Of a stretch of 64,000 bases of DNA, positions 36,418 to 59,928 are shown one piece after another. The notes under the pieces are model-generated. The model was not told the origin of the DNA. It made no database searches and worked only from the letters and a program-made list of their open reading frames with translations. Numbering within the stretch: position 1 is the stretch's first letter; each line of letters starts with the position of its first letter. Made by a program: the position numbers and the translations under genes. Origin of the DNA: Eledone cirrhosa. Lineage: Eukaryota. The stretch is from positions 8,990,001 through 9,054,000 of the forward strand of contig OZ024761.1 of the NCBI GenBank assembly GCA_964016885.1, written 5' to 3'.

Positions 36418-36444
36418 GTGAGTAATGAACTGGTATATGTTATA

Positions 36445-37937: not shown

Positions 37938-38007
37938 GTGAGTAAGCTCTTTATATTCTTAGGATTTAGAGGCAGTGTGTCGTGGCAGTGACACTGGATG
38001 GTGTGCC

Positions 38008-38465
38008 ATCATCATCATCATCATCATTTTACATCCGCTTTCCCTTGCTTACAAGGGTGGGACGGATCCTATTCAGCACAGCATCTCTCCTCTTGTCACG
38101 GTCCTTCGTCATCTCCGTGAGCTTCAGTGATCTGAGCTCTGCTCTCACCTCACCACTTCCGCCCATGTTCTTTGTGGTCTTCTTCTACGGCATCTTCCGT
38201 CTACTGGGATTTCTTGGCACTTCTTTACCAAGCGGTCATCCTCCATGCACATCACATGTCCATACCATCTCAGCCTTCTCTCCCGCACACCATAACTTAT
38301 CCCTCTTATACCCAGTTTCTTTCTCAACTTGTCCATGCTTGGTCGTTCACGCACATTAACATAGCACATCCAACGGAGCGTGCTTGCTTTGTTTCTCTTC
38401 AGCCATCGCATATCCTCCACAGTTGCTGCCCATGGCTCACTACCATGCAGCATCAGGCATGCCAT
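38008..38465 (-). mobile_element. RTE-clade LINE 3' fragment with (GAT)n tail
   Basis: LHGSEPW...LRWMC...RERRLRWYGHV...GR.RRRRP..TW.EVV, typical of the RTE ORF C-terminus. Confidence 0.85.
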
Positions 38466-38789
38466 CTCCGAATCAATTCTATTCTCTGTTAATATTTGCC
38501 GTAATCCAGTAATTTATTACTTAACCCCTTCAGTGCCATAGACGAGATAGCTCACCCTAACATGTATGCATCCAGTGCCACAGATGAGATAACTCGTCCT
38601 AACGTATTTGAACTCTTTTCCATCTGTCATAACTTCTAAGTTATGAGCTCGTTTCCAACAGTTCAGAAATACCATATGTCAATACAGCATCCCTAATAAC
38701 ACCATCAGGCGTTACATGACCATACATACATATAAGTTGAACCCCACCCCCCATTTTACCATTGTTTTTTTGGTTACATTTTTTTCTAG

Positions 38790-39300
38790 GGTGTATTAGT
38801 TCTCTCCAGTGGTCTCTGTCTTTCATCCTCGCCGCTATGTCCTGCATCTCCAAGAGACAGGTGTCTGTCCTTAGGGTATCAATATATGTCAACCTCGTTC
38901 TCCCTCTTCTAGTGTGTCCATGTAGGGGCTCCCACAGGAGCACTGAGTGCAGTGTCAACTCTGGATGCCGGTGAGCATGTCCAGCTAACCTCAGTCTCCT
39001 CTGTGTCATTTTTGAGAGGCTCACGTACAGCTCTGAGTTCTTCATCCTCAGTGTATACTGATTAATGTTCAAAGCCATCCTCAGCATTCTCGTGTAGCAC
39101 CCATTCACCATCTGAGTGAGTCTCAGACCTGTACAGAAGCACAGACTCCACCATCCACCAAACCAACCAACCATCCATCGATGGTGCCAAAGAGTGAACC
39201 ATCTCGTGGTTGGGATGCTAGATTTTCCTAGAAATAGCAGCCAAAATTCCACCATATCGACACATACAGCAGCACAGATTCCACTGAAGCGATGAAGAGA
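38790..39300 (-). mobile_element. Second non-LTR (RTE/RTE-X-like) fragment, degenerate
   Basis: RMLRMALNI...NSELY...RRLRLAGHAHRHPE...LLWEP..G..RRGR..LTYID. Confidence 0.75.
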
Positions 39301-39463
39301 TGGTCCTTGATTTATATTTAAGTATATATATATACTCTTTTAGTCTTTTACCTGTTCCAGCCATCCGACTGAGGCCATGCTGGGGCACCACTCTGTATGG
39401 CAATTATTGTAAAGAATCTTTTGTCTGATTGTTTTGTTTCATTTTCTTTCTTTCCATTGAAAG

Positions 39464-39608
39464 AGATCAAGTCATTTTACGTGAATAATCGGTTATTTTC
39501 GGAGCCTATCAAGAAGAAGTCGATCTTAACTTCTAAAGAATCGTCTAAAGTCAATCGCAGCAACATTGCTAAAAGTAAAACTACCTTTACTTCTCCAAGA
39601 TATGTCAG
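39464..39608 (+). CDS. MIIP: MIIP-like copy A exon 5 (IKSFYVNNRLFSEP...SPRYV-R)
   Basis: Y.VN.RLF..P and P..VR motifs of the MIIP domain; acceptor after pyrimidine tract, donor AG|GTAAAT; phases 1 and 2. Confidence 0.8.
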
Positions 39609-39629
39609 GTAAATCTGAAAATTTCTTGT

Positions 39630-40775
39630 TCATACATACACACACAACACATACATACATACACAAGACATACATACATACACACACACTGACATAGTGA
39701 CATACATATACACACAACACATACATATAGTGACATATACACACAACACATACATACACACACACATATATACACAAATACACACACATGCACATACACA
39801 CACACATATAGTGACATATGCATACATACACACACAACACATACAGACATACACACACACATACACATACATATAGTGACATACACACACAACACATACA
39901 TACATACACTGACATACACACACATGCACATACACACACAACACATACATACACAAATACACACACATGCACAACACATACATACATTACATACATACAC
40001 TGACATACGCACACATACACAAATACACACACATATAGTGACATACACACACAACACATACACACACTCACATACATATATTCATATGCACACACATACA
40101 CGCACTCACATACATATATTCATATACACACACTCACATACACCTGCAACACATACACGCACTCACATATACACACATACATATATTCATATACACACAC
40201 ATACACGCACTCACATACATATATTCATATACACATATGCACACACACACATACATATACACACACTCACATACACCTGCAACACATGCATGCACACACA
40301 TACATATATTCTTATACACATATGCACACACACCTGCAACACATACGCACACATTCACATACACACACTCATACATATACACACACATACACATATGCAT
40401 ACATACACAACACATACACTGACATACACACACAGCACCTACATACATAGTGACATACACACACAACACATATATACATTACATACAGACACACACAACA
40501 CATATGCACACACTCATATACACCTGCAACACATACACATATGCACACATTCACATACACCTGCAACACATACACACACTCATACATATATTCATATACA
40601 CATATGCACACACATACATATATTCTTATAAGCATATGCACACACTCACATACACCTGCAACACATACATATATTCATATACACACACTCACATACACCT
40701 GCAACACATACATATATTCATATACACACACATACACATATGCACACACTCACATACACCTGCAACACATACAGG
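39630..40775. repeat. Complex (CA/TA)-rich microsatellite
   Basis: Direct reading; mirror at 56885-58202. Confidence 0.95.
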
Positions 40776-40861
40776 TCTAACTGATGCTAATGTGGAAGAT
40801 AGACGTTAAATGATGATGATGATGATACTTTATTTTAATTGTTTCATTTTGTCTGTTGTAG

Positions 40862-40961
40862 AATCACGATGCCACAGAATCTGTTGGTAACAAAACCCAA
40901 AGTCAGTAAAACTCCTCGGGTGGGTACCTGTAACCCCACTGAGAGTTTATCTCTTGGAAAG
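40862..40961 (+). CDS. MIIP: MIIP-like copy A exon 6 (ITMPQNLLVTKPKVSKTPRVGTCNPTESLSLGK)
   Basis: Acceptor gtctgttgtAG, donor AAG|GTCTGT; phases 2 and 0; resembles MIIP V.IP...L and D.L.L segments. Confidence 0.75.
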
Positions 40962-41024
40962 GTCTGTCTTCTTACATTTTAAGACGATGTTTGGTTGTTT
41001 GAACGTTTAAGTGGAATTGTTTAA

Positions 41025-42843
41025 CCCTTTAGCATTTAAACTGGTTGTATCTGGCCAGAATTATCTCACCTCTTTCTGCTTAAACCAGTTGTATCTGGCC
41101 AGAATTATCTCACCTCTTTCTGCTTAAACCAGTTGTATCTGGCCAGAATTATCTCACCTCTTTCTGCTTAAACCAGTTGTATCTGGCCAGAATTATCTCA
41201 CCTCTTTCTGCTTAAACCAGTTGTATCCGGCCAGAATTCTCTCATCTCTTTCTGCTTAAACCAGTTGTATCCGGCCAGAATTATCTCACCTCTTTCTGTT
41301 CAAACCGGTTGTATCCGGCCAGAATTATCTCACCTCTTTCTGTTCAAACCAGTTGTATCCGGCCAGAATTATCTCACCTCTTTCTGTTCAAACCAGTTGT
41401 ATCCGGCCAGAATTATCTCACCTCTTTCTGCTTAAACCAGTTGTATCCGGCCAGAATTATCTCACATCTTTCTGCTTAAACCAGTTGTATCTGGCCAGAA
41501 TTCTCTCACCTCTTTCTGCTTAAACCAGTTGTATCTGGCCAGAATTCTCTCACCTCTTTCTGTTCAAACCAGTTGTATCCGGCCAGAATTCTCTCACCTC
41601 TTTCTGTTCAAACCAGTTGTATCCGGCCAGAATTATCTCACCTCTTTCTGCTTAAACCAGTTGTGTCTGGCCAGAATTATCTCACCTCTTTCTGTTCAAA
41701 CCAGTTGTATCTGGCCAGAATTATCTCACTTCTTTCTGTTCAAACCAGTTGTATCCGGCCAGAATTATCTCACCTCTTTCTGCTTAAACCAGTTGTGTCT
41801 GGCCAGAATTATCTCACCTCTTTCTGTTCAAACCAGTTGTATCTGGCCAGAATTATCTCACCTCTTTCTGTTCAAACCAGTTGTATCTGGCCAGAATTAT
41901 CTCACCTCTTTCTGTTCAAACCAGTTGTATCTGGCCAGAATTATCTCACCTCTTTCTGCTTAAACCAGTTGTATCTGGCCAGAATTCTCTCACCTCTTTC
42001 TGTTCAAACCAGTTGTATCTGGCCAGAATTATCTCACCTCTTTCTGTTCAAACCAGTTGTATCTGGCCAGAATTATCTCACCCCTTTCTGTTCAAACCAG
42101 TTGTATCTGGCCAGAATTATCTCACCTCTTTCTGTTCAAACCAGTTGTATCTGGCCAGAATTATCTCACCTCTTTCTGTTCAAACCAGTTGTATCTGGCC
42201 AGAATTATCTCACCTCTTTCTGTTCAAACCAGTTGTATCCGGCCAGAATTATCTCACCTCTTTCTGTTCAAACCAGCTGTATCTGGCCAGAATTCTCTCA
42301 CCTCTTTCTGTTCAAACAAGTTGCATCTGGCCAGAATTATCTCATCTCTTTCTGCTTAAACCAGTTGTATCTGGCCAGAATTATCTCACCTCTTTCTGTT
42401 CAAACCAGTTGTATCTGGCCAGAATTATCTCACCTCTTTCTGTTCAAACCAGTTGTATCTGGCCAGAATTATCTCACCTCTTTCTGCTTAAACCAGTTGT
42501 ATCTGGCCAGAATTATCTCACCTCTTTCTGATTAAACCAGTTGTATCTGGCCAGAATTCTCTCACCTCTTTCTGTTCAAACAAGTTGTATCTGGCCAGAA
42601 TTATCTCATCTCTTTCTGCTTAAACCAGTTGTATCTGGCCAGAATTCTCTCACCTCTTTCTGTTCAAACTGGCCATATCCGGCCAGAAATTTCTCACCTC
42701 TTTCTGTCCAAACCAGCTGTAACTGGCCACTCATACTGATGTTAAGGTATTGTTATCAAAATATCTTTGATTCGATATTGCGAAATAAAGCCTTTACCAT
42801 GAAAATACAAAAGTAAATATAGAGTAATGTGAATGCTATAGGG
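41025..42843. mobile_element. piggyBac-like MITE with an internal 44-bp tandem array (~38 units)
   Basis: TTAA|CCCTTTAGCATT ... AATGCTATAGGG|TTAA; unit aaaccagttgtatctggccagaattatctcacctctttctgttc is present about once in the copy at 2562-2769. Confidence 0.85.
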
Positions 42844-43153
42844 TTAATGTGAGATGATGACTATTGCTTCTCTCCATTTCCAACTCTACGTCCATCTATC
42901 TCTATCTTTCACTATATCCATCTATCTTGATATACACCCCTCTATATCTCTCTCTCTATATATATCTATATATATATTCCTCTTTCTCTATATCCCTCTA
43001 TCTATCTATCTCAGTATCCATCTAGCTCTCTCCGTATCCATCTATCTCTATCTCTCACCTTTCTATATGTTGTCATCCATTAATCCAGTGACAATTGTTT
43101 CAACCATTTTTCTTTCTTTCTTCTTCTCCTGCCCCTCCTCTTCCTGCTGGCAG

Positions 43154-43255
43154 CACTGTGTAATGGGATGGGATAACACCCAGCATGGCAAACAGTTCAC
43201 ATCTTCCAACATCAGCATCAAACATGCTTCAGGAGGCAGAACCAAGGAAACACTG
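43154..43255 (+). CDS. MIIP: MIIP-like copy A exon 7 (HCVMGWDN...KETL)
   Basis: HC..GW motif closing the MIIP domain; acceptor cAG after pyrimidine tract, donor CTG|GTAAGT phase 0. Confidence 0.85.
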
Positions 43256-43499
43256 GTAAGTTTGGGTAAGTTGGGCGGGCAGGTGGGGAACAATATTCAA
43301 GGCAAGACAAGCTGGGGACCACCACAACAACATCAGCCACCTTATCAACTTCCTGAAAATTTGGCACCCATGTTGTCCGAAGTATAGTCGTCTAATTTTC
43401 ATTGATGTAATGGCTGGAGTTTTGTAATGTAATTACTACTGTGGGGCCCTGGAAAATGCCATAGATTTAGATAGAGTTCCATCAGAGTGTCGGCTCTTT

Positions 43500-43632
43500 A
43501 CCAGATTGATAGTCCCATGAGAATGTCAGGTTTTACCGCTCCCAAACTGATAGTCCTATGAGAACATCAGGTCTTACCTCTCCCAAATTGATAGTCCCAC
43601 CAGAATGTCAGGTCTTACCTCTCCCAAATTGC
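43500..43632. repeat. ~39-bp degenerate tandem repeat
   Basis: aaattgatagtccc..agaatgtcaggtcttacctctccc units; more copies in the mirror at 54478-54685. Confidence 0.7.
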
Positions 43633-43772
43633 AGTTTATGATGTCTGTTATCATATCATAACAATTAATTTATATTAAATTTATTTCGGCGTATATGAAC
43701 TGAGACCCATCTTTTATTTAGTAAAAAAATACACCAAATTCTAATTCGATTTACAAATAATTTTACTTTCAG

Positions 43773-44210
43773 ATGATGGAAGAAGCAGAACATTTGGCAT
43801 CCATGACCACATCACTGTTTCAAACAAGAGGCCGCTATCAACAGCTAACTCAAACACCAACAAACTATCAGATTCCAACCGCTGCCAGTGGAGGAAGATG
43901 TCATAAGAAGGACTCCTCGAGAGAACGGAAATCACTGCAACATCAACCTGGATTGTTGAACTCCAAGTCATACTCGGAGAAGAAGTCTTCAAGCTCATTT
44001 CTGCGTCATGTTACCAATGCTGTAGCAACTTGTTCTGTTGTCACACCATCAACCCCTCACTCTTCGAGAGCGATGACGAGCAGCACACTGTCGACTAGTG
44101 AGCTGTTGGACAACACTTACTCTCTCATCACTGACTTGGATCGATTGAAGGCAAAATACGAGAACAAAGAACTGGAACGACAACAGCAGCTTCAAAATAT
44201 GACTCCATAA
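43773..44210 (+). CDS. MIIP: MIIP-like copy A terminal exon 8
   Basis: Acceptor ttttactttcAG phase 0, 145 codons to TAA, C-terminal coiled-coil-like segment; ORF retained in copy B. Confidence 0.7.
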   Translation: MMEEAEHLASMTTSLFQTRGRYQQLTQTPTNYQIPTAASGGRCHKKDSSRERKSLQHQPGLLNSKSYSEKKSSSSFLRHVTNAVATCSVVTPSTPHSSRAMTSSTLSTSELLDNTYSLITDLDRLKAKYENKELERQQQLQNMTP

Positions 44211-44484
44211 TTACCTTGATCAACCTTCACACCTCCATAATTACCTGAAAATCACGTCAACACATTCCATAATCACCTGAAAAGCAGCCCCTTCACCTCT
44301 ATGATCACCTCAACCAATTGCCACACATCCAATAATAACCTAAAAATCATGTCAACCAACTGTGACACATTCCATAAACACCTGAAAATCAGACCCTTCA
44401 CCTCCATAACTACGAATTAAAAAAATTCTGTTTCCATCCCGATTGTCTTGTTATTTCAGTTGACGTCAGCAAAGATGTATATAA

Positions 44485-44771
44485 CCCTTTAGCGTGTACA
44501 TTACTCTATATATACTATTATATTTTCATGGTAAAGGCTTTATCTCACATTACTCTCTATATATACTATATTTTGACGGTAAAGGCTTTATCTCACATCA
44601 AATTTGCATTACTCTATATATATATGCTATTGTATTTTGACGGTAAAGGCTTTACCTCACATAGTACCGAATCTATGAGATCTGATAACTTAACATCAGT
44701 ATGAGTGGCCGGTATAGCCAGTTTCAATAGTAAAAGGTGAGAGGTTTCTGGCCAGTTTAAATGCTAAAGGG
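44485..44771. mobile_element. TTAA-MITE family copy with ~3 internal ~51-bp units
   Basis: CCCTTTAGC...AATGCTAAAGGG|TTAA; mirror at ~52980-53402 has ~6 units and has lost one terminus. Confidence 0.7.
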
Positions 44772-44976
44772 TTAATATATAAATTATATGTATATACACA
44801 CACTATATTTACGTAGAATTTGGTGAAAATCATCAAACTATTGACTCCGTATATAAGTCAACTATCGATTCTTTGGTTACATATTCCTCGATTTCTATTC
44901 GAATATATCCTGTTATATATGTACAAAATACTAGTAGTTCTTCAATGGCTATATATCCTATTATATTTATATATAG

Positions 44977-45046
44977 AAACGGAAAGACAGCGAGATAACA
45001 CTCGGAATATATCGTGTTATCTCGCTGTCTTTCCGTTTTTTTTTTT
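44977..45046. other. Perfect 25-bp inverted repeat (12-nt loop) followed by a T run
   Basis: AAACGGAAAGACAGCGAGATAACAC-tcggaatatatc-GTGTTATCTCGCTGTCTTTCCGTTT then more Ts. Confidence 0.9.
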
Positions 45047-45094
45047 AAAAAAGAAAGAAAACTTTAGCTATAAGTATGACTATTTGACTCAGTA

Positions 45095-45448
45095 GAATTG
45101 CGGCTTGTGCGTGGCGCTGCACGTAGCGTTTCTGGCTTCGCTGTCGTACTTCGGTATGGCATGACCACTCTATCGCGTCTGAAGTTCGAATCGTTGCGGG
45201 GTCGGCCGGGACTATTAGCAGGCTGGCTTTATGCTGGCCTGCGTCCCCCTCGCATGAGTTTTTACTAAAAATTCAATTAGAGTTATCTCCCCCTTAATTG
45301 AATTATTTGTCGAATTACTTCCCCTTTCTGGAACTCTTCTTTCTCTGTCGTCATTTCTCTTTCGTGTGGCGAAGCGTTAACATCATTTGATTTACACTCG
45401 GACTATTGACAACACCACTCTGGATTTTACCCTCGTGTAAAGAGCTAA
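45095..45448 (+). promoter_or_regulatory. CpG-rich promoter-like module with a putative non-coding first exon
   Basis: CpG-dense 45095-45255; TTAGAGTTATCTCCCCC at 45277-45293; TCT/TOP-like CTCTTCTTTCTCT at 45334; possible donor AA|GTAATG at 45449. Confidence 0.45.
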
Positions 45449-46278
45449 GTAATGTTTTATTTTCCATTAATTAATTCTAACACACATATTATTGAGATAT
45501 AAGAATACGTTTTTCTATATACAAGAAGACACTTTTTCTTTTTGGAAACATACATACATACACAAAGCTACATTTGTAAATATATATATCCTCTGAATAA
45601 GGCGGTAAATTCAATTTAAACATACGCCTATCTTTCATGTACACATGAAACTACATTATATACTGGCAGAATAAAGTTACACTTATATACATATTACCAG
45701 AGCTACATTTTATTATCTAACGAAGTCTTCTCAACACTATACACTTTTGTTTATTGTGGAGCAATAAAGTTACATTTATATATAAATGGTGTATAAACCC
45801 TCAGAGACTATATACATACTTCCATTGAGAAAATAAACCATACGGCTGTATTTTATTATCTAACGAAACATGGTAGCCACATGTCGTGTGTGGAGCTCTC
45901 TAAACTCCTTACCACCTTCTCTCTCAGACTATATACAGAGCTACATTTATCTCTTGAGAAAATAAACCATACGGTTATATTTTATCTAACGAAACATGGT
46001 AGCTTCATATCTTTGCCATGTATGGAGCTCTCTAAACTCATTACCACATTATCTACTATGTATAAACCTTCTCTCTCAGACTATATACAGAGCTACATTT
46101 ATCTCTTGAGAAAATAAACCATACGGTTATATTTTATCTAACGAAACATGGTAGCTTCATATCTTTGCCATGTATGGAGCTCTCTAAACTCCTTACTACA
46201 TTTAGCTATATTATCTATGTATAAACACTCTTCACTAAATACAAAATTAACCTATTTTATATTCCTAACAAACAACTA

Positions 46279-46459
46279 CAGGCTGGTCCGAAAATCTTGT
46301 CACTGCCTACGAAAAAGTAATAAGAAACAGTTTATGTCCCCATCGCAGTGAAGTCATGTCAGACATTCTCTTACCAGAATACACACGATCATGTGTCCAT
46401 ACACTCCCAGATAATTATATTATCAAAACAATATGTGACAAGACTCTCGGACCACCCTG
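46279..46459. mobile_element. Tc1/mariner-type MITE, 181 bp
   Basis: TA|CAGGCTGGTCCGAAAATCTTGTCAC ... GTGACAAGACTCTCGGACCACCCTG|TA. Confidence 0.85.
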
Positions 46460-47364
46460 TACATCTTATTTCGAAGAAGAAACCTAAATAAACGAATAAA
46501 CCAAACTTTTTCTTTGTTGCTTATTATTGTGTTCTGTATATATGTACACATACATTTATATAATTTCTTCACTAGACACAAACTACTGTATACATAAATC
46601 CCCTCTGTACAGGAGTAATGTTATTGTCTAGATAGATTCCTATTAGAAAGAAGTTGTACCCTATAGCAACTAAACCCACATTATGTGTGCCTGTTTATTA
46701 TACTAGACATATACTTCGAAGTAAACATCATATACATACAAGATGAGAAGTCTAATAATACAACTATATCATATAGATGTTATTTCCACCTTAAGAAACT
46801 ATATATATTCTTTGTCAAAATAAACAACACTAGTTTCATTTGTAGACATATAATGATATACCTTACTTGCTATATAAATAACTGTTATTGTCTAGGTACA
46901 AGTAAGCCAACACTATATACACATATGCCTATAGGAAGTTGTATTCTATATTTACATTCAGTTTCTTTCTTTAGAAACTTCGTATACACTTGTTCTTTTT
47001 AGTACGTTTTACCCAGCCTCTTTATTCATAATACTAGTTTCATTCTTTCTTAAGAAACCTCATCTACATATGATATGCTTTAACCTCACTATTATCTAGA
47101 CACACACCTTACTACAAGGTGTATCCTATAGAATACAGCATCTAAACTCACATTATGTGTGTCTGTTTATATTATGCTATACACTTGCTTGCGTATAAAA
47201 TAGGTAACACCATACAGATGTTATTTCCTTGCTAAGAAGGAAATTCTATCCTCATATAGCTTACTACTACATAAATAAATGAAACACAATTCGTATATAA
47301 CATGTAAACTAAACCTTCCCTATATAGAAGAAATGTTATTGTCTAGATACAATTAAGCATCTAT

Positions 47365-50300
47365 ATTGTATAGATGTTATTTCCTCCTTAAGAAACTCTA
47401 TATACAATCTTTGTCAAAATAAACAACACTAGTTTCATTTGTAGACATACCTTACTTGCTATATAAATAACTGTTATTGTCTAGGTACAAGTAGGCCAAC
47501 TCTATATACACACACGTCTATAGGAAGTTGTATTCTATATTTATATTCAGTTTCTTTCTTTAGAAACTTCATATACACTTACGTTCTTCCTACTCAGGAC
47601 ATTACTTACTAATATGTAAGTAATGTTTAGACACACACACACACTGTTTATAAGAATTTGTATTCTCAGACAGGCATATAGTGATATACCTTAACCCTAC
47701 TAGTTTTCTATTAAACAAAACATACATTCTTAGTATCTTTATTAAATCCTGCCTATACCGAAGAAATATTATTGTCTAGATACATGCCTATTGGAAACAG
47801 TTAAGCTAACTATAGATATGGATCTCTTGTGAGAAAGTAAACATTGTGTATACTATTATATTATAGACACATAAACTACTATTCCTAATGTCCAGATACA
47901 GGGAAATAGCAACTAAATCTCTATGAGGTATTTTTTATTTTATATTTAGCACGTCTTACTCAGTTTCTTCACTCATATAGGCCTTATATGTAGAATTAAG
48001 TAAACCCTATGTATACAGCATTCATACGTTCTGAGTTTCTTTATTTAGAAGCCCCATATGGATACATACCTCGATCAGTGTAAGAAACACTAGTTCAATT
48101 AAGGAAACTCTGTTGTAGTAGTATTCATACATTGTGGGTTTCGTTAGAGACTTCATATATACATCTTCCTTAGTTTCTAGTTCTAAGAAGCCGTACTTTA
48201 TAGCATCCATGTGTGTCTTATAAACATGTAAGTAAGCCGTGAGTGTATATATATACACTGCTTCATTTATAATGATATAGGTAAACATTACTACTACTAC
48301 TTTTGTATTACATTACAAGTAAGTAAGCTTTGTACATTATGTGTCTCTTTATATATACACACTCTTAGTTTCTTTCTTTCGAAACAAACTATCTCTGATA
48401 GGTAAGTAAGCCATATATACATTTATGTGTGTCTCTAACGCACACGTATGTATATATAGATTATTATTTACAATAGGTGGTATGTAAGCTCTATATATAC
48501 ACATGTTATGTGTATATAAATAAATGTTTTCTATAGAGAAGAAACGATTGAGTAGGTAAACCATATAATATACACTCCTTTAGAGAGGAGAAATGTAAGT
48601 AGGTAAACCCTTTCCATATATATATATATACACGCACCTTTAGAAACTTCATAGATAGGTGAGTAAACTGTATATACCACGTTTAAGAAACATTCCTAGT
48701 TTCTTCTATTATACATACCTCCATTACTGTAGGAAAAAGCTTCTATATATAATAAAGGACACAAAATAGGAAGAGTTTTATATTCTTTTTATTGATAACG
48801 TATATAAATGATTTCCTTTTATAGATGTTCAGCCTTGAAGTCGTGTGTGGGAATAACCAAGTTCCTGTTAATAAAGAAAGTTTACATATGTGTGTTTAGT
48901 TGTTTTTTTAAAAGGTGTACTGAAGAGAATGTAAGTATATATAAAGTTTCTAAAGGAAAGAAACTAGGAGTATAATGGTAAGTGTGGGTATATAGAGAGA
49001 TAGCTTCTATAGAGATGTGCCTCTTCTCTATACACAGAGTATGAATGCTGTATTCTATACAATATGTGTATAGAGAGAGAGATTACTTACATACATCATG
49101 TTTCTAAATAAAGAAACAAGCACTGTATTCTATAGAATACTACGGAGGTTGCTGTGTGTATATAGAGAAGATCTATTTATATGCATATAATATATAGGGT
49201 TTACTTTCCCACTAGACACTTCTACATAGAGAAGCTAAGAATGTGTACCTACTGTATTCTCCTGAGTATTACAGCAGTGGCTGTATGTGTATATATAGGG
49301 GTTTTACCTACCTAATTATTTCTTCTCTATAGAGAATATTTATAGAGGTTAATTGTTTCTATATATACAGTTACACTTCCTAAAGGAATGTATTCTATAG
49401 AATACTACAGCAGTAGCTGCGTGTATATAATATATATGGTTTATTTCTCCTCTACAGGGAAGACCTATTTATGTACATATAATATATAGGTTTTACTTGC
49501 CTACTAGAAACACTTACAATCTATGAAGCTTCTAAATACAGAATGTATATCTACTGTATTCTTTGGAGTATTACAGCTGTATGTGTATATAGGGGATTTA
49601 CCTACGTAGTTATTTCTTCTCTATAGAGAAGATTTATTTGTGTGTATATACAGCTTAATTGTTTCTATATATATATTCAGTTACATTTCCTAAAGTAATA
49701 AACTAGGAATGTATATAGAGGCACACACAGTGTATAAGTACTGTATTCTATAGAATGCTACAGTAGTAACTGTGTGTGTGTATATATATATAGAGGGTTT
49801 ACTTACTTGTTTATCTCTCCTCTGCAGAGAAGATCCATTTATATATAGGGTTTACTTGCCTACTAGAAACAATTATGTATCTATGAAGCTTCTAAAGAAA
49901 GAAGCCAAGAATGTGTCCCTACTGTATTCTGTTGAGTATTACAGCAGTAGCTGTGTGTATATATATATATAGGGTGTTTGCCTACCTAATTATTTCTTCT
50001 CTATAGAGAAGATTTATTTGTGTATATACAGCTTAATTGTTTCTATATAGTTACATTTCCTAAAGGAACAAACTAGGAATGTATAGAGGCGCACACGGTG
50101 TATAAGTACTATATTCAATACAATACTACAGCAATAAGTGTGTGTATATAGAGTTTACTTACTCAATTATATATATAGTGACAAAGGGTTTAGTTTCTTA
50201 GAGAAGCCTACATAATTTCTTATGGTATGTGAGGTGCCTAAAGAAAATAATGTATATAGCATAGTGTTTACATGTCTATTAGAAATAATTATCTAGGCAA

Positions 50301-50595
50301 TAGCGCTTCCTGTATGTAGAGAAACTTTATAACTAGGGAAGTATATAGGGTTTCTTAAGTCTGGATCTATATGGGGTTTACTTACTTGGTTGTTTCTTCT
50401 GTATAGAGAAGATTCATAATGTGGTGAATCTAAATAATAACACTGCTTCTGGATACAAAAGATTTGTTTACTTTCAGTATATACATACGTGTGTATAATG
50501 GGCACACGTCGATGGAGTAGCAAACCTTCTTATAGGCAGCATTAAGCGTGTATATAATATAGAGGGGATTTGTTTCTGAATATAGAATACACCTT
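47365..50595. other. AT-rich non-coding spacer of the palindrome, built of degenerate repeats
   Basis: No colinear mirror; direct duplication 46770-47000/47368-47595; three degenerate units starting ~49110, ~49390, ~49740. Confidence 0.75.
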
Positions 50596-51471
50596 ATAGA
50601 TACTGAAGTGCTTAATTATTTCTAACAGCTATCTAGACAATAACATTTCTTCTATATAGGGAAGGTTTAGTTTACATGTTATATGCGAATTGTGTTTCAT
50701 TTATTTATGTAGTAGTAAGCTATATGAGGATAGAATTTCCTTCTGAACAAGGAAATAACATCTGTATGGTGTTACCTATTTTATACGCAAGCAAGTGTAT
50801 AGCATAATATAAACAGACACACATAATGTGGGTTTAGATGCTGTATTCTATAGGATACACCTTGAAGTAAGGTATATGCCTTTGTGTGTATCTAGATAAT
50901 AGTAAGGTTAAAGCATATCATATGTAGATGTTTCTTAAGAAAGAATGAATAAAGAGGCTGGGTAAGACGTACTAAAAAGAACACAAGTGTATATGAAGTT
51001 TCTAAAGAAAGAAACTGGATGTAAATATAGAATACAACTTCCTATAGACATGTGTGTATATAGTGTTGGCTTACTTGTACCTAGACAATAACAGTTATTT
51101 ATATAGCAAGTAAGGTATATCATTATAGGTCTACAAATGAAACTAGTGTTGTTTATTTTGACAAAGATTGTATATAGAGTTTCTTATATCTATATGATAT
51201 AGTTGTATTATTAAAATGAATTCTTGTATAAATAATAAACAGGCACACATAATGGGTTTAGATGCTATAGGGTACAACTTCTTTCTAATAGGAATCTATC
51301 TAGACAATAACATTACTCCCGGACAGAGGGGATTTATGTATATAATAGTTTGTGTCTAGTGAAGAAATTATATAAATGTATGTGTACATATATACAGAAC
51401 ACAATAATAAGCAACAAAGAAAAAGTTTGGTTTATTCGTTTATTTAGGTTTCTTCTTCGAAATAAGATGTA

Positions 51472-51652
51472 CAGGGTGGTCCGAGAGTCTTGTCACATAT
51501 TGTTTTGATAATATAATTATCTGGGAGTGTATGGACACATGATCGTGTGTATTCTGGTAAGAGAATGTCTGACATGACTTCACTGCGATGGGGACATAAA
51601 CTGTTTCTCATTACTTTTTGGTAGGCAGTGACAAGACTTTCGGACCAGCCTG
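51472..51652. mobile_element. Tc1/mariner-type MITE (mirror of 46279-46459)
   Basis: TA|CAGGGTGGTCCGAGAG...CGGACCAGCCTG|TA. Confidence 0.85.
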
Positions 51653-52324
51653 TAGTTGTTTGTTAGGAATATAAAATAGGTTTAGTTTTGTGAAGAGTGT
51701 TTATACATAGATAATATAGCTAAATGTAGTAAGGAGTTTAGAGAGCTCCATACATGGCAAAGATATGAAGCTACCATGTTTCGTTAGATAAAATATAACC
51801 GTATGGTTTATTTTCTCAAGAGATAAATGTAGCTCTGTATATAGTCTGAGAGAGAAGGTGGTAAGGAGTTTAGAGAGCTCCATACACGACATGTGGCTAC
51901 CATGTTTCGTTAGATAATAAAATACAGCCGTATGGTTTATTTTCTCAATGGAAGTATGTATATAGTCTCTGAGGGTTTATACACCATTTATATATAAATG
52001 TAACTTTATTGTTCCACTATAAACAAAAGTGTATAGTGTTGAGAAGACTTCGTTAGATAATAAAATGTAGCTCTGGTAATATGTATATAAGTGTAACTTT
52101 ATTCTGCCAGTATATAATGTAGTTTCATGTGTACATGAAAGATAGGCGTATGTTTAAATTGAATTTACCGCCTTATTCAGAGGATATATATATTTACAAA
52201 TGTAGCTTTGTGTGTGTATGTATGTTTCCAAAAAGAAAAAGTGTCTTCTTGTATATAGAAAAACGTATTCTTATATCTCAATAATATGTGTGTTAGAATT
52301 AATTAATGGAAAATAAAACATTAC

Positions 52325-52678
52325 TTAGCTCTTTACACGAGGGTAAAATCCAGAGTGGTGTTGTCAATAGTCCGAGTGTAAATCAAATGATGTTAACGCT
52401 TCGCCACACGAAAGAGAAATGACGACAGAGAAAGAAGAGTTCCAGAAAGGGGAAGTAATTCGACAAATAATTCAATTAAGGGGGAGATAACTCTAATTGA
52501 ATTTTTAGTAAAAACTCATGCGAGGGGGACGCAGGCCAGCATAAAGCCAGCCTGCTAATAGTCCCGGCCGACCCCGCAACGATTCGAACTTCAGACGCGA
52601 TAGAGTGGTCATGCCATACCGAAGTACGACAGCGAAGCCAGAAACGCTACGTGCAGCGCCACGCACAAGCCGCAATTC
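52325..52678 (-). promoter_or_regulatory. Mirror CpG-rich promoter-like module
   Basis: Essentially identical reverse complement of 45095-45448. Confidence 0.45.
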
Positions 52679-52734
52679 TACTGAGTCAAATAGTCATACT
52701 TATAGCTAAAGTTTTCTTTCTTTTTTAAAAAAAA

Positions 52735-52796
52735 AAACGGAAAGACAGCGAGATAACACGATATATTCCGAGTGTTATCTCGCTGTCTTTCCGTTT
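52735..52796. other. Mirror perfect 25-bp hairpin
   Basis: Reverse complement of 44977-45038. Confidence 0.9.
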
Positions 52797-53762
52797 CTAT
52801 ATATAAATATAATAGGATATATAGCCATTGAAGAACTACTAGTATTTTGTACATATATAACAGGATATATTCGAATAGAAATCGAGGAATATGTAACCAA
52901 AGAATCGATAGTTGACTTATATACGGAGTCAATAGTTTGATGATTTTCACCAAATTCTACGTAAATAAAGTGTGTGTATTTAGCATTTAAACTGGCCAGA
53001 AACCTCTCACTGGCTATACCGGCGACTCATACTGATGTTAAGTTATCAGATCTCATAGATTCGGTACTATGTGAGGTAAAGCCTTTACCGTCAAAATACA
53101 ATAGTATATATATATAGAGTAATGTAAATTTTATGTGAGATAAAGCCTTTACCGTCAAAATATAAGAGTATATATAGAAAGTAATGTGAGATAAAGCCTT
53201 TACCGTCAAAATATAATAGTATATATAGAGAGTAATGTGAGATAAAGCCTTTACCGTGAAAATATAATAGTATATATAGAGAGTAATGTGAGATAAAGCC
53301 TTTACCGTCAAAATATAATAGTATATATAGAGAGTAATGTGAGATAAAGCCTTTACCGTGAAAATATAATAGTATATATAGAGTAATGTACACGCTAAAG
53401 GGTTATATACATCTAGGCTGACGTCAACTGAAATAACAAGACAATCGAAATGGAAACAGAATTTTTTAATTCATGGTTATGGAGGTGAAGGGTCTGATTT
53501 TCAGGTGTTTATGGAATGTGTCACAGTTGGTTGACATGATTTTCAGGTTATTGGATGTGTGGCAATTGGTTGAGGTGATCATAAGGGTGAAGGGGCTGCT
53601 TTTCAGGTGTTTATGGAATGTGTCACAGTTGTTTGACATGATTTTCAAGTTATTATTGGTTGAGGTGATCATAGAGGTGAAGGGGCTGCTTTTCAGGTGA
53701 TTATGGAATGTGTTGACGTGATTTTCAGGTAATTATGGAGGTGTGAAGGTTGATCAAGGTAA

Positions 53763-54200
53763 TTATGGAGTCATACTTTGAAGCTGCTGTTGTCGTACCA
53801 GTTCTTTGTTCTCGTATTTTGCCTTCAATCGATCCAAGTCAGTGATGAGAGAGTAAGTGTTGTCCAACAGCTCACTAGTCGACAGTGTGCTGTTCGTCGT
53901 CGCTCTCGAAGAGTGAGGGGTTGATGGTGTGACAACAGAACAAGTTGCTACAGCATTGGTAACACGACGCAGAAATGAGCTTGAAGACTTCTTCTCCGAG
54001 TATGACTTGGAGTTCAACAATCCAGGTTGATGTTGCAGTGATTTCCGTTCTCTCGAGGAGTCCTTCTTATGACATCTTCCCCCACTGGCAGCGGTGGGAA
54101 TCTGATAGTTTGTTGGTGTTTGAGTTAGCTGTTGATAGCGGCCTCTTGTTTGAAACAGTGATGTGGTCATGGATGCCAAATGTTCTGCTTCTTCCATCAT
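53763..54200 (-). CDS. MIIP: MIIP-like copy B exon 8
   Basis: 145-aa ORF with 5 aa differences from copy A; acceptor retained. Confidence 0.7.
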   Translation of the reverse strand: MMEEAEHLASMTTSLFQTRGRYQQLTQTPTNYQIPTAASGGRCHKKDSSRERKSLQHQPGLLNSKSYSEKKSSSSFLRRVTNAVATCSVVTPSTPHSSRATTNSTLSTSELLDNTYSLITDLDRLKAKYENKELVRQQQLQSMTP

Positions 54201-54930
54201 CTGAAAGTAAAATTATTTGTAAATCGAATTAGAAGTTGGTGTATTTTTTACTAAATAAAAGATGGGTCTCAGTTCATATACACCGATATCCATCTTTTCC
54301 CCATCCAGTGGGCTTATCCAACCTGTTGTTAAACTATTTTATTTAGTCAAAATCTTCAAATTCTGCTCTGCTTTCTAAACACACAAACATGATTTTTCTT
54401 TTTTTAATTTCCATAAACGGGAAAAAATTAATTGTTATGATTGTAAAATAATATGATAACAGACATCATAAACTGCAATTTGGGAGAGGTAAAACCTGAC
54501 ATTCTGGCCAGACTTTCAATTTGGGAGAGGTAAGACCTGACATTCTGATAGGGCTATCAGTTTGGGAGAGGTAAGACATGGGACTATCAATTTTGGAGAG
54601 GTAAGACCTGACATTCTGGTAGGACTATTAATTTGGGAGAGGTAAGACCTGGCATTCTCATGGGACTATCAATCTGGTAAAGAGCCGATACTCTGATGGG
54701 ACTCTATCTAAATCTATGGCATTTTCCAGGTCCCCACAGTAGTAATTACATTACAAAACTCCAGCCATTACATCAATGAAAATTAGACGACTATACTTCG
54801 GACAACATGGGTGCCAAATTTTCAGGAAGTTCATAAGGGGCTGATGTTGTTGTTGTGGTTGTGGTGGTCCACATCTTGTCTTGCCTTGAATATTGTTCCC
54901 CACCTGCCCGCCCAACTTACCCAAACTTAC

Positions 54931-55032
54931 CAGTGTTTCCTTGGTTCTGCCTCCTGAAGCATGTTTGATGCTGATGTTGGAAGATGTGAACTGTTTGCCA
55001 TGTTGGGTGTTATCCCATCCCATTACACAGTG
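54931..55032 (-). CDS. MIIP: MIIP-like copy B exon 7
   Basis: HCVMGWDN...KETL, splice sites retained. Confidence 0.85.
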
Positions 55033-55378
55033 CTGCCAGCAGGAAGAGCAGGGGCAGGAGAAGAAGAAAGAAAGAAAAATGGTTGAAACAATTGTCACTG
55101 GATTAATGGATGACAACATATAGAAAGGTGAGAGATAGAGATAGATGAATACAGAGAAAGTTAGATGGATACTGAGATAGATAGAGGGATATATATATAG
55201 AGAGAGAGATGGAGGGATAGAGAGAGAGAGGAATATATATATAGAGAGAGTTAGACAGATATATATATATATATAAAGAGAGATGGAGGGATATAGAGAT
55301 AGATAGAGGGGTATATATGGATATAGATGGATGTAGAGTTGGAAATGGACAGAAGCAATAGTCATCATCTCACATTAA

Positions 55379-56633
55379 CCCTATAGCATTCACATTACTC
55401 TATATTTACTTTTGTATTTTCAAGGTAAAGGCTTTATTTCACATAATATCGAATCAAAGAGATTTTGATAACAATACCTTAACATCAGTATGAGTGGCCA
55501 GTTACAGCTGGTTTGGACAGAAAGAGGTGAGAGAATTCTGGCCAGATACAGCTGGTTTGAACAGAAAGAGGTGAGAGAATTCTGGCTGGATGCAACTGGT
55601 TTGAACAGAAAGAGGTGAGTGTGAGAGAATTCTGGCCAGACACAACTGGTTTGAACAGAAAGAGGTGAGATAATTCTGGCCAGATACAACTGGTTTGAAC
55701 AGAAAGAGGTGAGATAATTCTGGCCAGACACAACTGGTTTGAACAGAAAGAGGTGAGATAATTCTGGCCGGATACAGCTGGTTTGAACAGAAAGAGGTGA
55801 GATAATTCTGGCCGGATACAACTGGTTTGAACAGAAAGAGGTGAGAGAATTCTGGCCAGATACAACTGGTTTGAACAGAAAGAGGTGAGATAATTCTGGC
55901 CAGATACAACTGGTTTAAGCAGAAAGAGGTGAGATAATTCTGGCCAGTTATGACTGGTTTAAGCAGAAAGAGGTGAGATCATTCTGGCCAGATACAGCTG
56001 GTTTGTACAGAAAGAGGTGAGATAATTCTGGCCGGATACAGCTGGTTTGAACAGAAAGAGGTGAGATAATTCTGGCCAGATACAACTGGTTTGAACAGAA
56101 AGAGGTGAGATAATTCTGGCCAGATACAACTGGTTTGAACAGAAAGAGGTGAGATAATTCTGGCCAGATACAACTGGTTTGAACAGAAAGAGGTGAGAGA
56201 ATTCTGGCCAGATACAACTGGTTTGAACAGAAAGAGGTGAGATAATTCTGGCCAGATACAACTGGTTTGAACAGAAAGAGGTGAGATAATTCTGGCCAGA
56301 TACAACTGGTTTGAACAGAAAGAGGTGAGAGAATTCTGGCCGGATACAACTGGTTTAAGCAGAAAGATGCGAGATAATTCTGGCCAGATACAACTGGTTT
56401 GAACAGAAAGAGGTGAGATAATTCTGGCCAGATACAACTGGTTTGAACAGAAAGAGGTGAGAGAATTCTGGCCAGATACAACTGGTTTGAACAGAAAGAG
56501 GTGAGAGAATTCTGGCCAGATACAACTGGTTTGAACAGAAAGAGGTGAGAGAATTTTGGCTGGATACAACTGGTTTAAGCAGAAAGAGGTGAGAGAATTC
56601 TGGCCAGATACAACCAGTTTAAATGCTAAAGGG
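55379..56633. mobile_element. piggyBac-like MITE with a 44-bp array (~25 units), mirror of 41025-42843
   Basis: TTAA|CCCTATAGCATT...AATGCTAAAGGG|TTAA; 564 bp shorter than the arm A copy. Confidence 0.85.
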
Positions 56634-56696
56634 TTAAACAATTCCACTTAAACGTTCAAACAACCAAACATCGTCTTAAAATGTAAGAAGACAGAC

Positions 56697-56796
56697 CTTT
56701 CCAAGAGATAAACTCTCAGTGGGGTTACAGGTACCCACCCGAGGAGTTTTACTGACTTTGGGTTTTGTTACCAACAGATTCTGTGGCATCGTGATT
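56697..56796 (-). CDS. MIIP: MIIP-like copy B exon 6
   Basis: 100-nt reverse complement of 40862-40961 with splice sites. Confidence 0.75.
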
Positions 56797-56884
56797 CTAC
56801 AACAGACAAAATGAAACAATTAAAATAAAGTATCATCATCATCATCATTTAACGTCTATCTTCCACATTAGCATCAGTTAGACC

Positions 56885-58202
56885 TGTATGTGTTGCAGGT
56901 GTATGTGAGTGTGTGTATATGTGTATGTGTGTGTATATGAATATATGTATGTGTTGCAGGTGTATGTGAGTGTGTGCATATCAATATATGTATGTGTTGC
57001 AGGTGTATGTGAGTGTGTGTATATGAATATATGTATGTGTTGCAGGTGTATGTGAGTGTGTGCATATGCTTATAAGAATATATGTATGTGTGTGCATATG
57101 TGTATATGAATATATGTATGAGTGTGTGTATGTGTTGCAGGTGTATGTGAATGTGTGCATATGTGTATGTGTTGCAGGTGTATATGAGTGTGTGCATATG
57201 CGTGTATGTGTTGTGTGTGTCTGTATGTAATGTATATATGTGTTGTGTGTGTATGTCACTATGTATGTAGGTGCTGTGTGTGTATGTCACTATGTCAGTG
57301 TATGTATGTATGTGTTGTGTGTGCATGTATGTGTTGTGTATGTATGCATATGTGTATGTGTGTGTATATGAATATATGTATGAGTGTGTGTATGTGAATG
57401 TGTGCATATGTGTATGTGTTGCAGGTGTGTGTGCATATGTGTATAAGAATATATGTATGTGTTGCAGGTGTATGTGAGTGTGTGCATATGTGTATATGTA
57501 TGTGTGTGTATGTGTGTGTGTGCATATGTGTATATGAATATATGTATGTGTTGTATGTGAGTGCGTGTATGTGTGTGCATATGTGTATATGAATATATGT
57601 ATGTGTGTATATGTGAGTGCGTGTATGTGTTGCAGGTGCATATGTGTATATGAATATATGTATGTGAGTGCGTGTATGTGTGTGCATATGAATATATGTA
57701 TGTGAGTGTGTGTATGTGTTGTGTGTGTATGTCACTATATGTGTGTGTGTGTATTTGTGTATGTGTGCGTATGTCAGTGTATGTATGTAATGTATGTGAA
57801 TGTATGTATGTGTTGTCCATGTGTGTGTATTTGTGTATGTATGTGTTGTGTGTGTATGTCACTATATGTATGTGTATGTGTGTGTGTATGTCTGTATGTG
57901 TATGTATGTGTTGTGTGTGTATTTCAGTGTATGTATGTGTTGTGTGTGTATGTCTATGTGTGGGTGTATGTATGTATGCATATGTCACTATATGTGTGTG
58001 TGTATGTGCATGTGTGTGTATTTGTGTATATATGTGTGTGTGTATGTATGTGTTGTGTGTATATGTCACTATATGTATGTGTTGTGTGTATATGTCACTA
58101 TATGTATGTGTTGTGTGTATATGTATGTCACTATGTCAGTGTATGTGTTGTGTGTGTATGTATGTATGTATGTGTTGTGTATGTGTTGTGTGTGTATGTA
58201 TG
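56885..58202. repeat. Complex (TG/TA)-rich microsatellite
   Basis: Direct reading. Confidence 0.95.
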
Positions 58203-58224
58203 AACAAGAAATTTTCAGATTTAC

Positions 58225-58369
58225 CTGACATATCTTGGAGAAGTAAAGGTAGTTTTACTTTTAGCAATGTTGCTGCGATTGACTTTAGACGATTCTTTAG
58301 AAGTTAAGATCGACTTCTTCTTGATAGGCTCCGAAAATAACCGATTATTCACGTAAAATGACTTGATCT
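58225..58369 (-). CDS. MIIP: MIIP-like copy B exon 5
   Basis: 145 nt, peptide identical to copy A. Confidence 0.8.
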
Positions 58370-58529
58370 CTTTCAATGGAAAGAAAGAAAATGAAACAAA
58401 ACAATCAGACAAAAGATTCTTTACAATAATTGCCATACAGGGTGGTGCCCCAGCATGGCCTCAGCCGGATGGCTGGAACAGGTAAAAGAGTATATAAATA
58501 TATATACTGAAATATAAATCAAGGACCAT

Positions 58530-59075
58530 CTCTTCATCGCTTCAGTGGAATCTGTGCTGCTGTATGTGTCGATATGATGGAATTTTGGCTGCTATTTCTA
58601 GGAAAATCTAGCATCCCAACCATGAGATGGTTCACTCTTTGGCACCGTCGATGGATGGTTGGTTTGGTTGGTTTGGTGGATGGTGGAGTCTGTGCTTCTG
58701 TACAGGTCTGAGACTCACTCAGATGGTGGATGGGTGCTACACGAGAATGCTGAGGATGGCTCTGATTAATATCAGTATACACTGAGGATGAAGAACTCAG
58801 AGCTGTACAGGAGTCTCTCGAAAGTCAGCTCAAAAGTAACACAGAGGAGACTGAGGTTAGCTGGACATGCTCACCGACATCCAGAGTTGACATTGCACTC
58901 AGTGCTCCTGTGAGAGCCCCTACATGGACACACTAGAAGAGGGAGAACAAGGTTGACATATTGATACCCTAAGGACAGACACCTGTCTCTTGGAGATGCA
59001 GGACATAGCGGTGATGATGAAAGACAGAGACCACTGGAGAGAACTAATACATGGATCTCGGGAATTTTCCCCACC
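58530..59075 (+). mobile_element. RTE/RTE-X-like fragment (mirror of 38790-39300)
   Basis: Reverse complement with several indels. Confidence 0.7.
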
Positions 59076-59400
59076 CTAGAAAAAAAATGTAACCAAAAAT
59101 ACAATGGTAAAATGGGGGGTGGGGTTCAACTTATATGTATGTATGGTCATGTAACGCCTGATGGTGTTATTAGGGATGCTGTATTGACATATGGTATTTC
59201 TGAACTGTTGGAAACGAGCTCATAACTTAGAAGTTATGACAGATGGAAAAGAGTTCAAATACGTTAGGACGAGTTATCTCATCTGTGGCACTGGATGCAT
59301 ACATGTTAGGGTGAGCTATCTCGTCTATGGCACTGAAGGGGTTAAGTAATAAATTACTGGATTACGGCAAATATTAACAGAGAATAGAATTGATTCGGAG

Positions 59401-59858
59401 ATGGCATGCCTGATGCTGCATGGTAGTGAGCCATGGGCAGCAACTGTGGAGGATATGCGATGGCTGAAGAGAAACAAAGCAAGCACGCTCCGTTGGATGT
59501 GCTATGTTAATGTGCGTGAACGACCAAGCATGGACAAGTTGAGAAAGAAACTGGGTATAAGAGGGATAAGTTATGGTGTGCGGGAGAGAAGGCTGAGATG
59601 GTATGGACATGTGATGTGCATGGAGGATGACCGCTTGGTAAAGAAGTGCCAAGAAATCCCAGTAGACGGAAGATGCCGTAGAAGAAGACCACAAAGAACA
59701 TGGGCGGAAGTGGTGAGGTGAGAGCAGAGCTCAGATCACTGAAGCTCACGGAGATGACGAAGGACCGTGACAAGAGGAGAGATGCTGTGCTGAATAGGAT
59801 CCGTCCCACCCTTGTAAGCAAGGGAAAGCGGATGTAAAATGATGATGATGATGATGAT
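59401..59858 (+). mobile_element. RTE LINE 3' fragment (mirror)
   Basis: 106-aa translation identical to 38145-38465; (GAT)n tail. Confidence 0.85.
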
Positions 59859-59928
59859 GGCACACCATCCAGTGTCACTGCCACGACACACTGCCTCTAA
59901 ATCCTAAGAATATAAAGAGCTTACTCAC

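What the first reader, a model, noticed from the sequence alone, without database searches (positions are those of the whole stretch)
44977..52796. Inward-facing twin promoter-like modules at the palindrome core: candidate long-hairpin/dsRNA generator
Seen: just downstream of each MIIP 3' end is the same cassette: perfect hairpin plus T run, CpG-rich block, AGAGTTATCTCCCC motif, TCT-like pyrimidine start, possible GT donor. Both cassettes point at the centre and are virtually identical between arms. The ~7 kb between them has no credible ORF, and its outer ~1.9 kb on each side is complementary. Inference: a transcript crossing the centre would fold into a kb-long duplex, or convergent transcription would give dsRNA. 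This could be an endo-siRNA/piRNA source or an ADAR substrate (A-to-I editing is extensive in coleoid cephalopods), and read-through would be antisense to the opposite MIIP copy. This is my best candidate for an undescribed system.
Basis: partly seen in the sequence, partly recalled or inferred. Interest (0 to 1): 0.75.

Follow-up and report, generated by a model that had tools for sequence, protein, structure and literature searches.

The report
Paired inward-facing noncoding gene family
The two inward-facing cassettes are copies of a promoter-like module found over a hundred times in this octopus-like genome, mostly as face-to-face pairs; each likely drives a short spliced non-coding RNA that stops before the middle, so a long hairpin RNA would arise only in a few fully mirrored copies such as this one, and no RNA has been seen.

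Summary
The twin cassettes are real (0 mismatches in 481 bp between arms) but not unique. An exact 17-mer from them has 92 genome hits, 70 of them in 35 convergent pairs 5-13 kb apart; diverged copies lie on at least ten more chromosomes, many again paired. Across subfamilies the CpG block, exon 1, GT donor, acceptor, short exon 2 and AATAAA are conserved while introns are not, and no ORF is shared: a family of likely two-exon noncoding Pol II genes. In 26 of 41 sampled pairs the predicted first poly(A) sites fall 0.6-5.8 kb short of each other; only 5 of 41 interiors are largely self-complementary. Partner cassettes group together in a tree (gene conversion); ends vary, no target-site duplications were seen (core-duplicon-like spread). 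This window's pair is derived: both donors are GT>CT, a MITE interrupts exon 2, and poly(A) signals precede the centre. The 2-kb hairpin needs read-through, and a published survey found no endo-siRNA pathway in molluscs. Transcription is untested. No description was found in the paper searches run or in this scan's earlier notes.

The parts
44977..45038 (+). Perfect inverted repeat (25-bp stem, 12-nt loop) holding two inverted copies of the GTTATCTC motif core; followed by a T run
   Evidence: conserved in diverged copies with some compensatory changes; the arm pattern has 166 genome hits, the 13 checked outside C22/C23 all sit at family cassettes
45090..45260 (+). CpG-rich promoter-like block
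   Evidence: CpG o/e 1.2, GC 58%; most conserved part of the family
45279..45292 (+). AGAGTTATCTCCCC motif, a genome-wide motif not specific to this family
   Evidence: 912 exact genome hits against 12 for the reversed control; one-mismatch copy before MIIP exon 1
45334..45444 (+). Predicted noncoding exon 1 of the left gene (start inferred)
   Evidence: alignment and donor position
45445..45450 (+). Mutated 5' splice site (CTAAGT where the family has GTATGT/GTTTGT/GTAAGT)
   Evidence: 72 GT, 2 GC, 5 CT, 1 GG of 80 recognised donors; a contig covers it without differences
46277..46462 (.). Small TIR element (MITE) inserted in the Q-type terminal exon
46487..46535 (+). Q-type poly(A) signal (two AATAAA) with U/GU-rich downstream element
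   Evidence: conserved in 12 of 12 aligned Q copies
47350..50629 (.). Non-complementary spacer of degenerate AT-rich duplications; C-over-G skew flips sign near 48.5-48.8 kb
48770..48864 (-). Older R-type terminal exon (acceptor at 48864, AATAAA 48793-48788) shared with deeply diverged subfamilies
51396..51444 (-). Q-type poly(A) signal of the right gene
52329..52439 (-). Predicted noncoding exon 1 of the right gene, donor also mutated to CT
52440..52796 (-). Right promoter-like cassette (motif, CpG block, hairpin)
4393..47349 (+). Left arm of the palindrome with a MIIP copy (exon 1 at 6165-6277, last exon about 43774-44210) and a 24.4-kb 40-bp satellite in its first intron
50630..64000 (-). 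Right arm with the inverted MIIP copy; runs on about 3.8 kb past the window end and includes exon 1

Best explanation
The cassettes belong to a multi-copy family arranged mostly as convergent pairs, and each cassette is likely the promoter and first exon of a two-exon noncoding RNA polymerase II gene whose predicted RNA (about 160-210 nt after splicing) ends at its own poly(A) site before the centre. Shown: copy number, pairing, the conservation pattern, lack of a shared ORF, grouping of partner cassettes in the tree, variable unit ends. Inferred: transcription, splicing and cleavage; homogenising of the two cassettes by gene conversion across the inverted pair; spread by segmental duplication with the pair as a core that carries neighbouring genes such as MIIP along. 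The window holds a derived Q/Q copy in which both donors are dead, so it would give an unspliced 1.15-kb RNA per arm or nothing; the 2-kb duplex would form only as a read-through by-product.
For: 92 exact 17-mer hits, control 0; 35 convergent, 3 divergent, 4 same-strand neighbour pairs within 14 kb, shuffled-strand mean 10.5, maximum 22 in 20,000 (copies are kin, so not independent). Diverged copies on C9, 10, 12, 13, 14, 18, 19, 20, 21, 24, 26. Four subfamilies each of P and Q: CpG block, exon 1 and donor 0.76-0.80 identity, exon 2 plus poly(A) 0.70-0.74, acceptor 0.75 (P) and 0.61 (Q), introns and post-poly(A) 0.53-0.59 against 0.52-0.57 shuffled; no ORF shared. Donors 74 of 80 GT or GC. 26 of 41 sampled pairs have both first terminal exons recognised and 0.6-5.8 kb apart. 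P and Q cassettes of one locus are sisters at C8 (100/100), L067 (95/85), L056 (98/93), C23:5.6 Mb (98/87) although their bodies group by type. Shared flanks end at different places among ten young units and among old ones.
Against: No RNA evidence was obtained, so promoter, splicing and poly(A) use are predicted from sequence only. Rapid indel and repeat turnover could make introns unalignable without selection on exons. Several copies have lost donor or acceptor, and the ETS-like motif of the C23 group is mutated here. 11 of 41 pairs show one or no recognised terminal exon, and 4 show crossed ones, which the short-transcript model does not cover. Much of the C23 part of the tree is unresolved (20 of 40 branches open). 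What the RNAs do is not established.
Confidence: 0.6

Rival explanations
1. The pairs are dedicated long-hairpin or convergent-dsRNA generators: poly(A) sites are read through, and the duplexes feed piRNA production, ADAR editing or heterochromatin, with this copy silencing its own family and perhaps MIIP.
For: Convergent pairing is kept across old subfamilies. 5 of 41 pairs have largely mirrored interiors, at four separate loci, some made of inverted satellite arrays. In four C20 pairs the two R exons are crossed by about 1.5 kb. At C12:47.08 Mb the + gene has no recognised terminal exon before a 93%-identical inverted satellite. Donor loss here in both arms. Molluscs have abundant piRNAs (PMC12479628, passages).
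Against: 36 of 41 interiors are not largely complementary; P/Q units have conserved poly(A) signals ahead of the centre. The crossed R exons may instead be served by a central CpG island whose motif copies point outward. No siDicer or endo-siRNA signature in molluscs (PMC12479628, passages). Short first exon and CpG-rich promoter are the reverse of pachytene piRNA genes (PMC7782496, abstract). 15 AATAAA lie on the + strand before the right arm.
Confidence: 0.15
2. The pair is a non-autonomous transposon with long promoter-bearing inverted ends (Mutator/foldback-like or DIRS-like), and the convergent layout is simply its terminal repeats.
For: Unit size 5-13 kb with 0.5-1.4-kb inverted ends more alike than the interior, dispersed over many chromosomes.
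Against: Inverted-repeat boundaries differ between loci and run into old SINE and MITE insertions; no shared terminus or target-site duplication seen. No transposase, reverse transcriptase or recombinase frame belonging to the unit in the interiors scanned. Conserved splice and poly(A) signals. No processed copy of the P junction (one 22-nt pattern, up to 1 mismatch).
Confidence: 0.12
3. The family descends from a once-active noncoding gene pair but is now mostly silent; the inverted cassettes persist through mutual gene conversion and act only as rearrangement hot spots.
For: Dead donors in 6 of 80 copies, both here; LINE and MITE insertions in introns and exon 2; units sit at centres of larger palindromes.
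Against: CpGs are retained (o/e 1.2); acceptors and poly(A) signals are conserved between loci in regions that intra-pair conversion does not homogenise.
Confidence: 0.13

Closest known systems
Primate core duplicons such as LCR16a/NPIP (PMC7419210, passages read)
   Same: A transcribed-looking core found in many interspersed duplication blocks with variable flanking genes and at inversion or palindrome centres.
   Different: The core here is a 5-13-kb convergent pair of noncoding two-exon genes, with no protein family; transcription is not shown.
Drosophila hpRNA loci such as Nmy and Tmy (PMC10292708, passages read)
   Same: Young inverted duplications that could fold into long duplexes against a related gene family.
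   Different: hpRNAs are single transcripts spanning the inverted repeat and need Dcr-2/AGO2; here predicted poly(A) sites precede the centre in most copies, and molluscs are reported to lack siDicer (PMC12479628).
Drosophila Su(Ste) repeats (PMC8412255, passages read)
   Same: Multi-copy locus with convergent Pol II promoters and spliced, polyadenylated sense transcripts.
   Different: Su(Ste) sense and antisense RNAs overlap and match a protein-coding target; most pairs here do not overlap and no target is evident.
Noncoding ampliconic genes in mammalian sex-chromosome palindromes; 5'TOP noncoding snoRNA host genes (both recalled, no call)
   Same: Noncoding spliced genes kept alike by arm-to-arm conversion; short noncoding exons with a pyrimidine-rich start.
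   Different: No conserved intronic RNA was found; only the promoter and exon 1 are usually homogenised, not the whole arm.
Avian 'sequence stuttering' of introns (PMC12954441, abstract read)
   Same: Introns filled by locally expanded short repeats that differ between copies (35-, 40-, 64-bp units and microsatellites).
   Different: Described for protein-coding genes on chicken dot chromosomes, not for a paired noncoding family.

Membership tests
hpRNA / endo-siRNA locus | One transcript spans both arms of the inverted repeat | tested here: inconclusive
   2.0-kb complementarity exists but conserved poly(A) signals precede the centre; no RNA to test read-through
hpRNA / endo-siRNA locus | 21-22-nt siRNAs made by a dedicated siRNA Dicer | not testable with these tools
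   no small-RNA data; PMC12479628 reports no siDicer in molluscs (passages)
Pachytene-type piRNA precursor gene | First exon of 10 kb or more, or long unspliced transcript; low-to-intermediate CpG promoter | tested here: not met
   predicted exon 1 about 100-110 nt, CpG o/e 1.2 against PMC7782496 (abstract)
piRNA cluster (any type) | 26-31-nt 1U reads with phasing or ping-pong | not testable with these tools
   no small-RNA run available
TIR transposon (Mutator/foldback) or DIRS-like element | Fixed termini with target-site duplication or defined inverted terminal repeats | tested here: not met
   boundaries vary between loci
TIR transposon (Mutator/foldback) or DIRS-like element | Autonomous relative encoding transposase or RT/recombinase between the repeats | tested here: inconclusive
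   none in the interiors scanned; only part of the roughly 350 candidates was fetched
snoRNA/miRNA host gene | Conserved structured RNA in the intron | tested here: not met
   no Rfam hit in the window; no shared intronic hairpin in 8 copies; intron identity at shuffled level
Core duplicon | Constant core inside duplication blocks with variable flanks | tested here: met
   ten young units share about 6-12 kb, flanks shared only by subsets
Core duplicon | Core is transcribed | not testable with these tools
   no RNA run available
C2H2 zinc-finger cluster promoter | C2H2 array exon downstream of exon 1 | tested here: not met
   no C2H2 array frame in the fetched regions scanned

The most novel reading that the evidence does not exclude
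Octopus genomes carry a family of more than a hundred paired inward-facing promoters that work as transcription traps for satellites and simple repeats: whatever expands in their introns is transcribed, and pairs that gene conversion has turned into full palindromes (this window, C12:47.08 Mb, C20:24.85 and 35.22 Mb) make kilobase dsRNA that feeds piRNA, ADAR editing or heterochromatin, a small-RNA source layout not described in any lophotrochozoan.
Probability: 0.15. Interest if true: 0.8.

Novelty: new variant of a known kind. Interest (0 to 1): 0.5.

Why it matters
If expressed, this is a large lineage-specific family of tiny spliced noncoding genes with an unusual fixed layout (face-to-face pairs whose promoters are kept alike within each pair). 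It would be invisible to protein-based annotation, appears to seed palindromes and gene duplications on the small chromosomes, and offers a ready list of loci at which to test whether cephalopods turn long dsRNA into small RNAs or edited RNA.

Tried and rejected
Search for RNA runs: no RNA holder listed; this is no evidence either way. The three runs listed are unlabelled, one sample, look like genomic DNA and may be the assembly's source; laid on the core they cover it and show allele-like differences only; laid on the C20 palindrome centre only short contigs were obtained, enough to show the centre sequence exists but not to bridge the palindrome. tRNA and Rfam scans of the window: nothing. 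C2H2-cluster promoter idea rejected. Viral inverted-terminal-repeat origin: one 22-nt pattern gave 0 hits in viral contigs. Free-standing MITE origin of the hairpin: not found among 13 hits checked. Conserved RNA structure in the R exon: none. Intronic motif shared by some P and Q copies is absent from the window and degenerate elsewhere. Sense-strand enrichment of donor-like motifs past the poly(A) site (14 against 3.5 expected) comes from duplicated copies of one motif and is missing in older pairs, so it was not used. Genome-wide PF15734 search was uninformative, its control did not ring. Paper searches for an octopus multi-copy or paired lncRNA family or octopus piRNA loci gave no description; subscription papers and supplements were not seen. 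An early reading that the right MIIP copy lacks exon 1 was wrong.
Full report
Observation. The window is G000:C22:8990001-9054000 in a 3.0-Gb animal genome; 'octopus-like' rests on sequence style and on earlier notes of this scan, not on a call of mine. The two arms match from 44901 to 46067 at 98.8% and from 45954 to 47349 at 89% with indels, leaving a 3.3-kb spacer. Over hairpin, CpG block and exon 1 the arms differ at 0 of 481 positions, against 1.6% in the MIIP last exon and 4.8% behind the poly(A) zone. Indels and substitutions between the arms argue against a fold-back assembly artefact. One exon matches Pfam MIIP above cut-off; the palindrome runs from 4393 to about 3.8 kb past the window end and both arms carry MIIP exon 1. 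No tRNA or Rfam match in the window.

The cassette is a family. A DNA search scored 40 of 328 candidates, all near-full-length copies at 83-100%. An exact 17-mer has 92 hits (C23 59, C22 15, C25 11, C8 2, C26 1, unplaced 4; reversed control 0). Of neighbouring hits within 14 kb, 35 are convergent, 3 divergent, 4 on one strand; spacing 5.0-13.1 kb, median 6.8; shuffled strands give a mean of 10.5 and a maximum of 22 in 20,000 trials. The copies are kin, so this shows that the pair is the unit of duplication, not 35 independent origins. A diverged copy as query scored 40 of 349 candidates at 70-82% on C9, 10, 12, 13, 18, 19, 20, 21, 23 and 24, and many of those fetched are again convergent pairs 5-7 kb apart.

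Anatomy. Behind exon 1 stands a donor: 72 GT, 2 GC, 5 CT and 1 GG among 80 cassettes recognised. Downstream lie short terminal exons with acceptor, AATAAA and a U-rich element, in three types: P (37 exact hits of its acceptor pattern), Q and an older R. Comparing four subfamilies each for P and Q, the CpG block, exon 1 and donor keep 0.76-0.80 identity and exon 2 plus poly(A) 0.70-0.74, while intron and downstream windows sit at 0.53-0.59 against 0.52-0.57 for shuffled sequence; the Q acceptor is weaker (0.61). Predicted spliced RNAs are about 160-210 nt in the six copies whose start could be placed, and share no ORF. No intronic hairpin is common to 8 copies tested and the R exon has no consensus fold. 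The AGAGTTATCTCCC motif has 912 genome hits against 12 for the control; 7 of 20 inspected belong to another repeat, the rest are unrelated sites, and a one-mismatch copy precedes MIIP exon 1. The upstream hairpin contains two inverted copies of the motif core, so I read it as a paired binding site rather than a terminator (inference; one search shows 4 of 31 pairs with double changes).

Do the partners overlap? Of 41 pairs sampled (chosen from top search hits, not at random), 23 are P/Q, 3 Q/Q, 4 have crossed R exons, 9 one recognised R and 2 none. In the 26 P/Q and Q/Q pairs the first terminal exons end 0.6-5.8 kb short of each other. Only 5 of 41 interiors are more than 40% self-complementary: this window, C12:47.08 Mb, C20:24.85 Mb and two at C20:35.22 Mb. 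In the crossed C20 pairs a centre-crossing pre-mRNA is possible, but a central CpG island with outward-pointing motif copies could serve those exons instead. Old subfamilies have introns filled with 35-, 40- or 64-bp satellites, sometimes mirrored, young ones with microsatellite.

Evolution. In a tree of 47 cassettes, P and Q cassettes of one locus are sisters in several supported cases while their bodies group by type; half of the inner branches are open. This is the pattern of gene conversion limited to the cassette. Inverted-repeat ends and shared flanks differ from locus to locus, and no common terminus or target-site duplication was seen. No processed copy of the P junction was found with one pattern. 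Units sit inside larger palindromes. This fits a core duplicon as described for primates (PMC7419210, passages).

This locus. It is a derived Q/Q pair. Both donors read CT, supported by unlabelled contigs that may come from the assembly's own sample. A MITE interrupts the Q exon, but the double AATAAA and downstream element remain at 46487 and 51444; an R exon survives on the minus strand at 48864-48770. A hairpin needs a transcript to pass these and, on the + strand, 15 AATAAA in all; antisense to MIIP needs more than 8 kb of read-through across the opposite cassette. A survey of mollusc small RNA reports piRNAs but no siDicer or endo-siRNA signature (PMC12479628, passages); pachytene piRNA genes have very long first exons and CpG-poorer promoters (PMC7782496, abstract); hpRNAs need Dcr-2 (PMC10292708, passages); Su(Ste) is a convergent, spliced piRNA source but with overlapping strands (PMC8412255, passages).

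Verdict. Best reading: a multi-copy family of likely two-exon noncoding genes in convergent pairs, homogenised within pairs and spread by segmental duplication; this copy is splice-dead and would give a duplex only by read-through (0.6). Rivals: dedicated dsRNA generator (0.15), silent relic (0.13), transposon with long inverted ends (0.12). Expression is untested throughout. Paper searches and look-ups of earlier notes by sequence, place and words gave no description of this family; papers outside the held library and supplements were not seen. Parts of the outputs were cut from view; counts given come from the uncut calls named.

Noticed in passing
window 6905-31347 and about 64750-65280 (window coordinates continued into L047): The 40-bp satellite in MIIP intron 1 has about 613 copies (24.4 kb) in the left arm but only about a dozen in the right arm: a local expansion in one arm, or an assembly collapse in the other.
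   Followed up: partly
window 34012-36447 (+) and 61342-63528 (-): A long low-complexity Gly/Tyr/Asp-rich frame upstream of the conserved MIIP exons, open in both arms with different repeat numbers.
   Followed up: no
L031:5229-5250 and other P copies: The P terminal exon begins with the same six bases as the family donor (AG|GTATGT), so splicing would regenerate a donor, as at recursive splice sites.
   Followed up: partly
L081:5950-6450, L082, L147, L151: C20 palindromic pairs have a central CpG island with outward-pointing copies of the GAGTTACCTCCC motif.
   Followed up: partly
L038:2200-2330, L089:4530-4680, L047:7436: Q-like terminal exons lie 1.2-2.3 kb upstream of some cassettes on the opposite strand, hinting at bidirectional promoters or lost partners.
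   Followed up: partly
window 45.3-52.4 kb and many family pairs: Sense strands behind each cassette are C-rich and G-poor, the skew flipping at the centre.
   Followed up: partly
G000 genome-wide: AGAGTTATCTCCCY occurs 912 times against 12 for its reversed control, in this family, in another repeat and before MIIP: a candidate general promoter motif.
   Followed up: partly
G000:C23:3.94-3.97 Mb and 9.37-9.41 Mb: Two pairs mirrored into higher-order palindromes (13-21-kb arms, 96-97%) centred on an 88-bp satellite.
   Followed up: no
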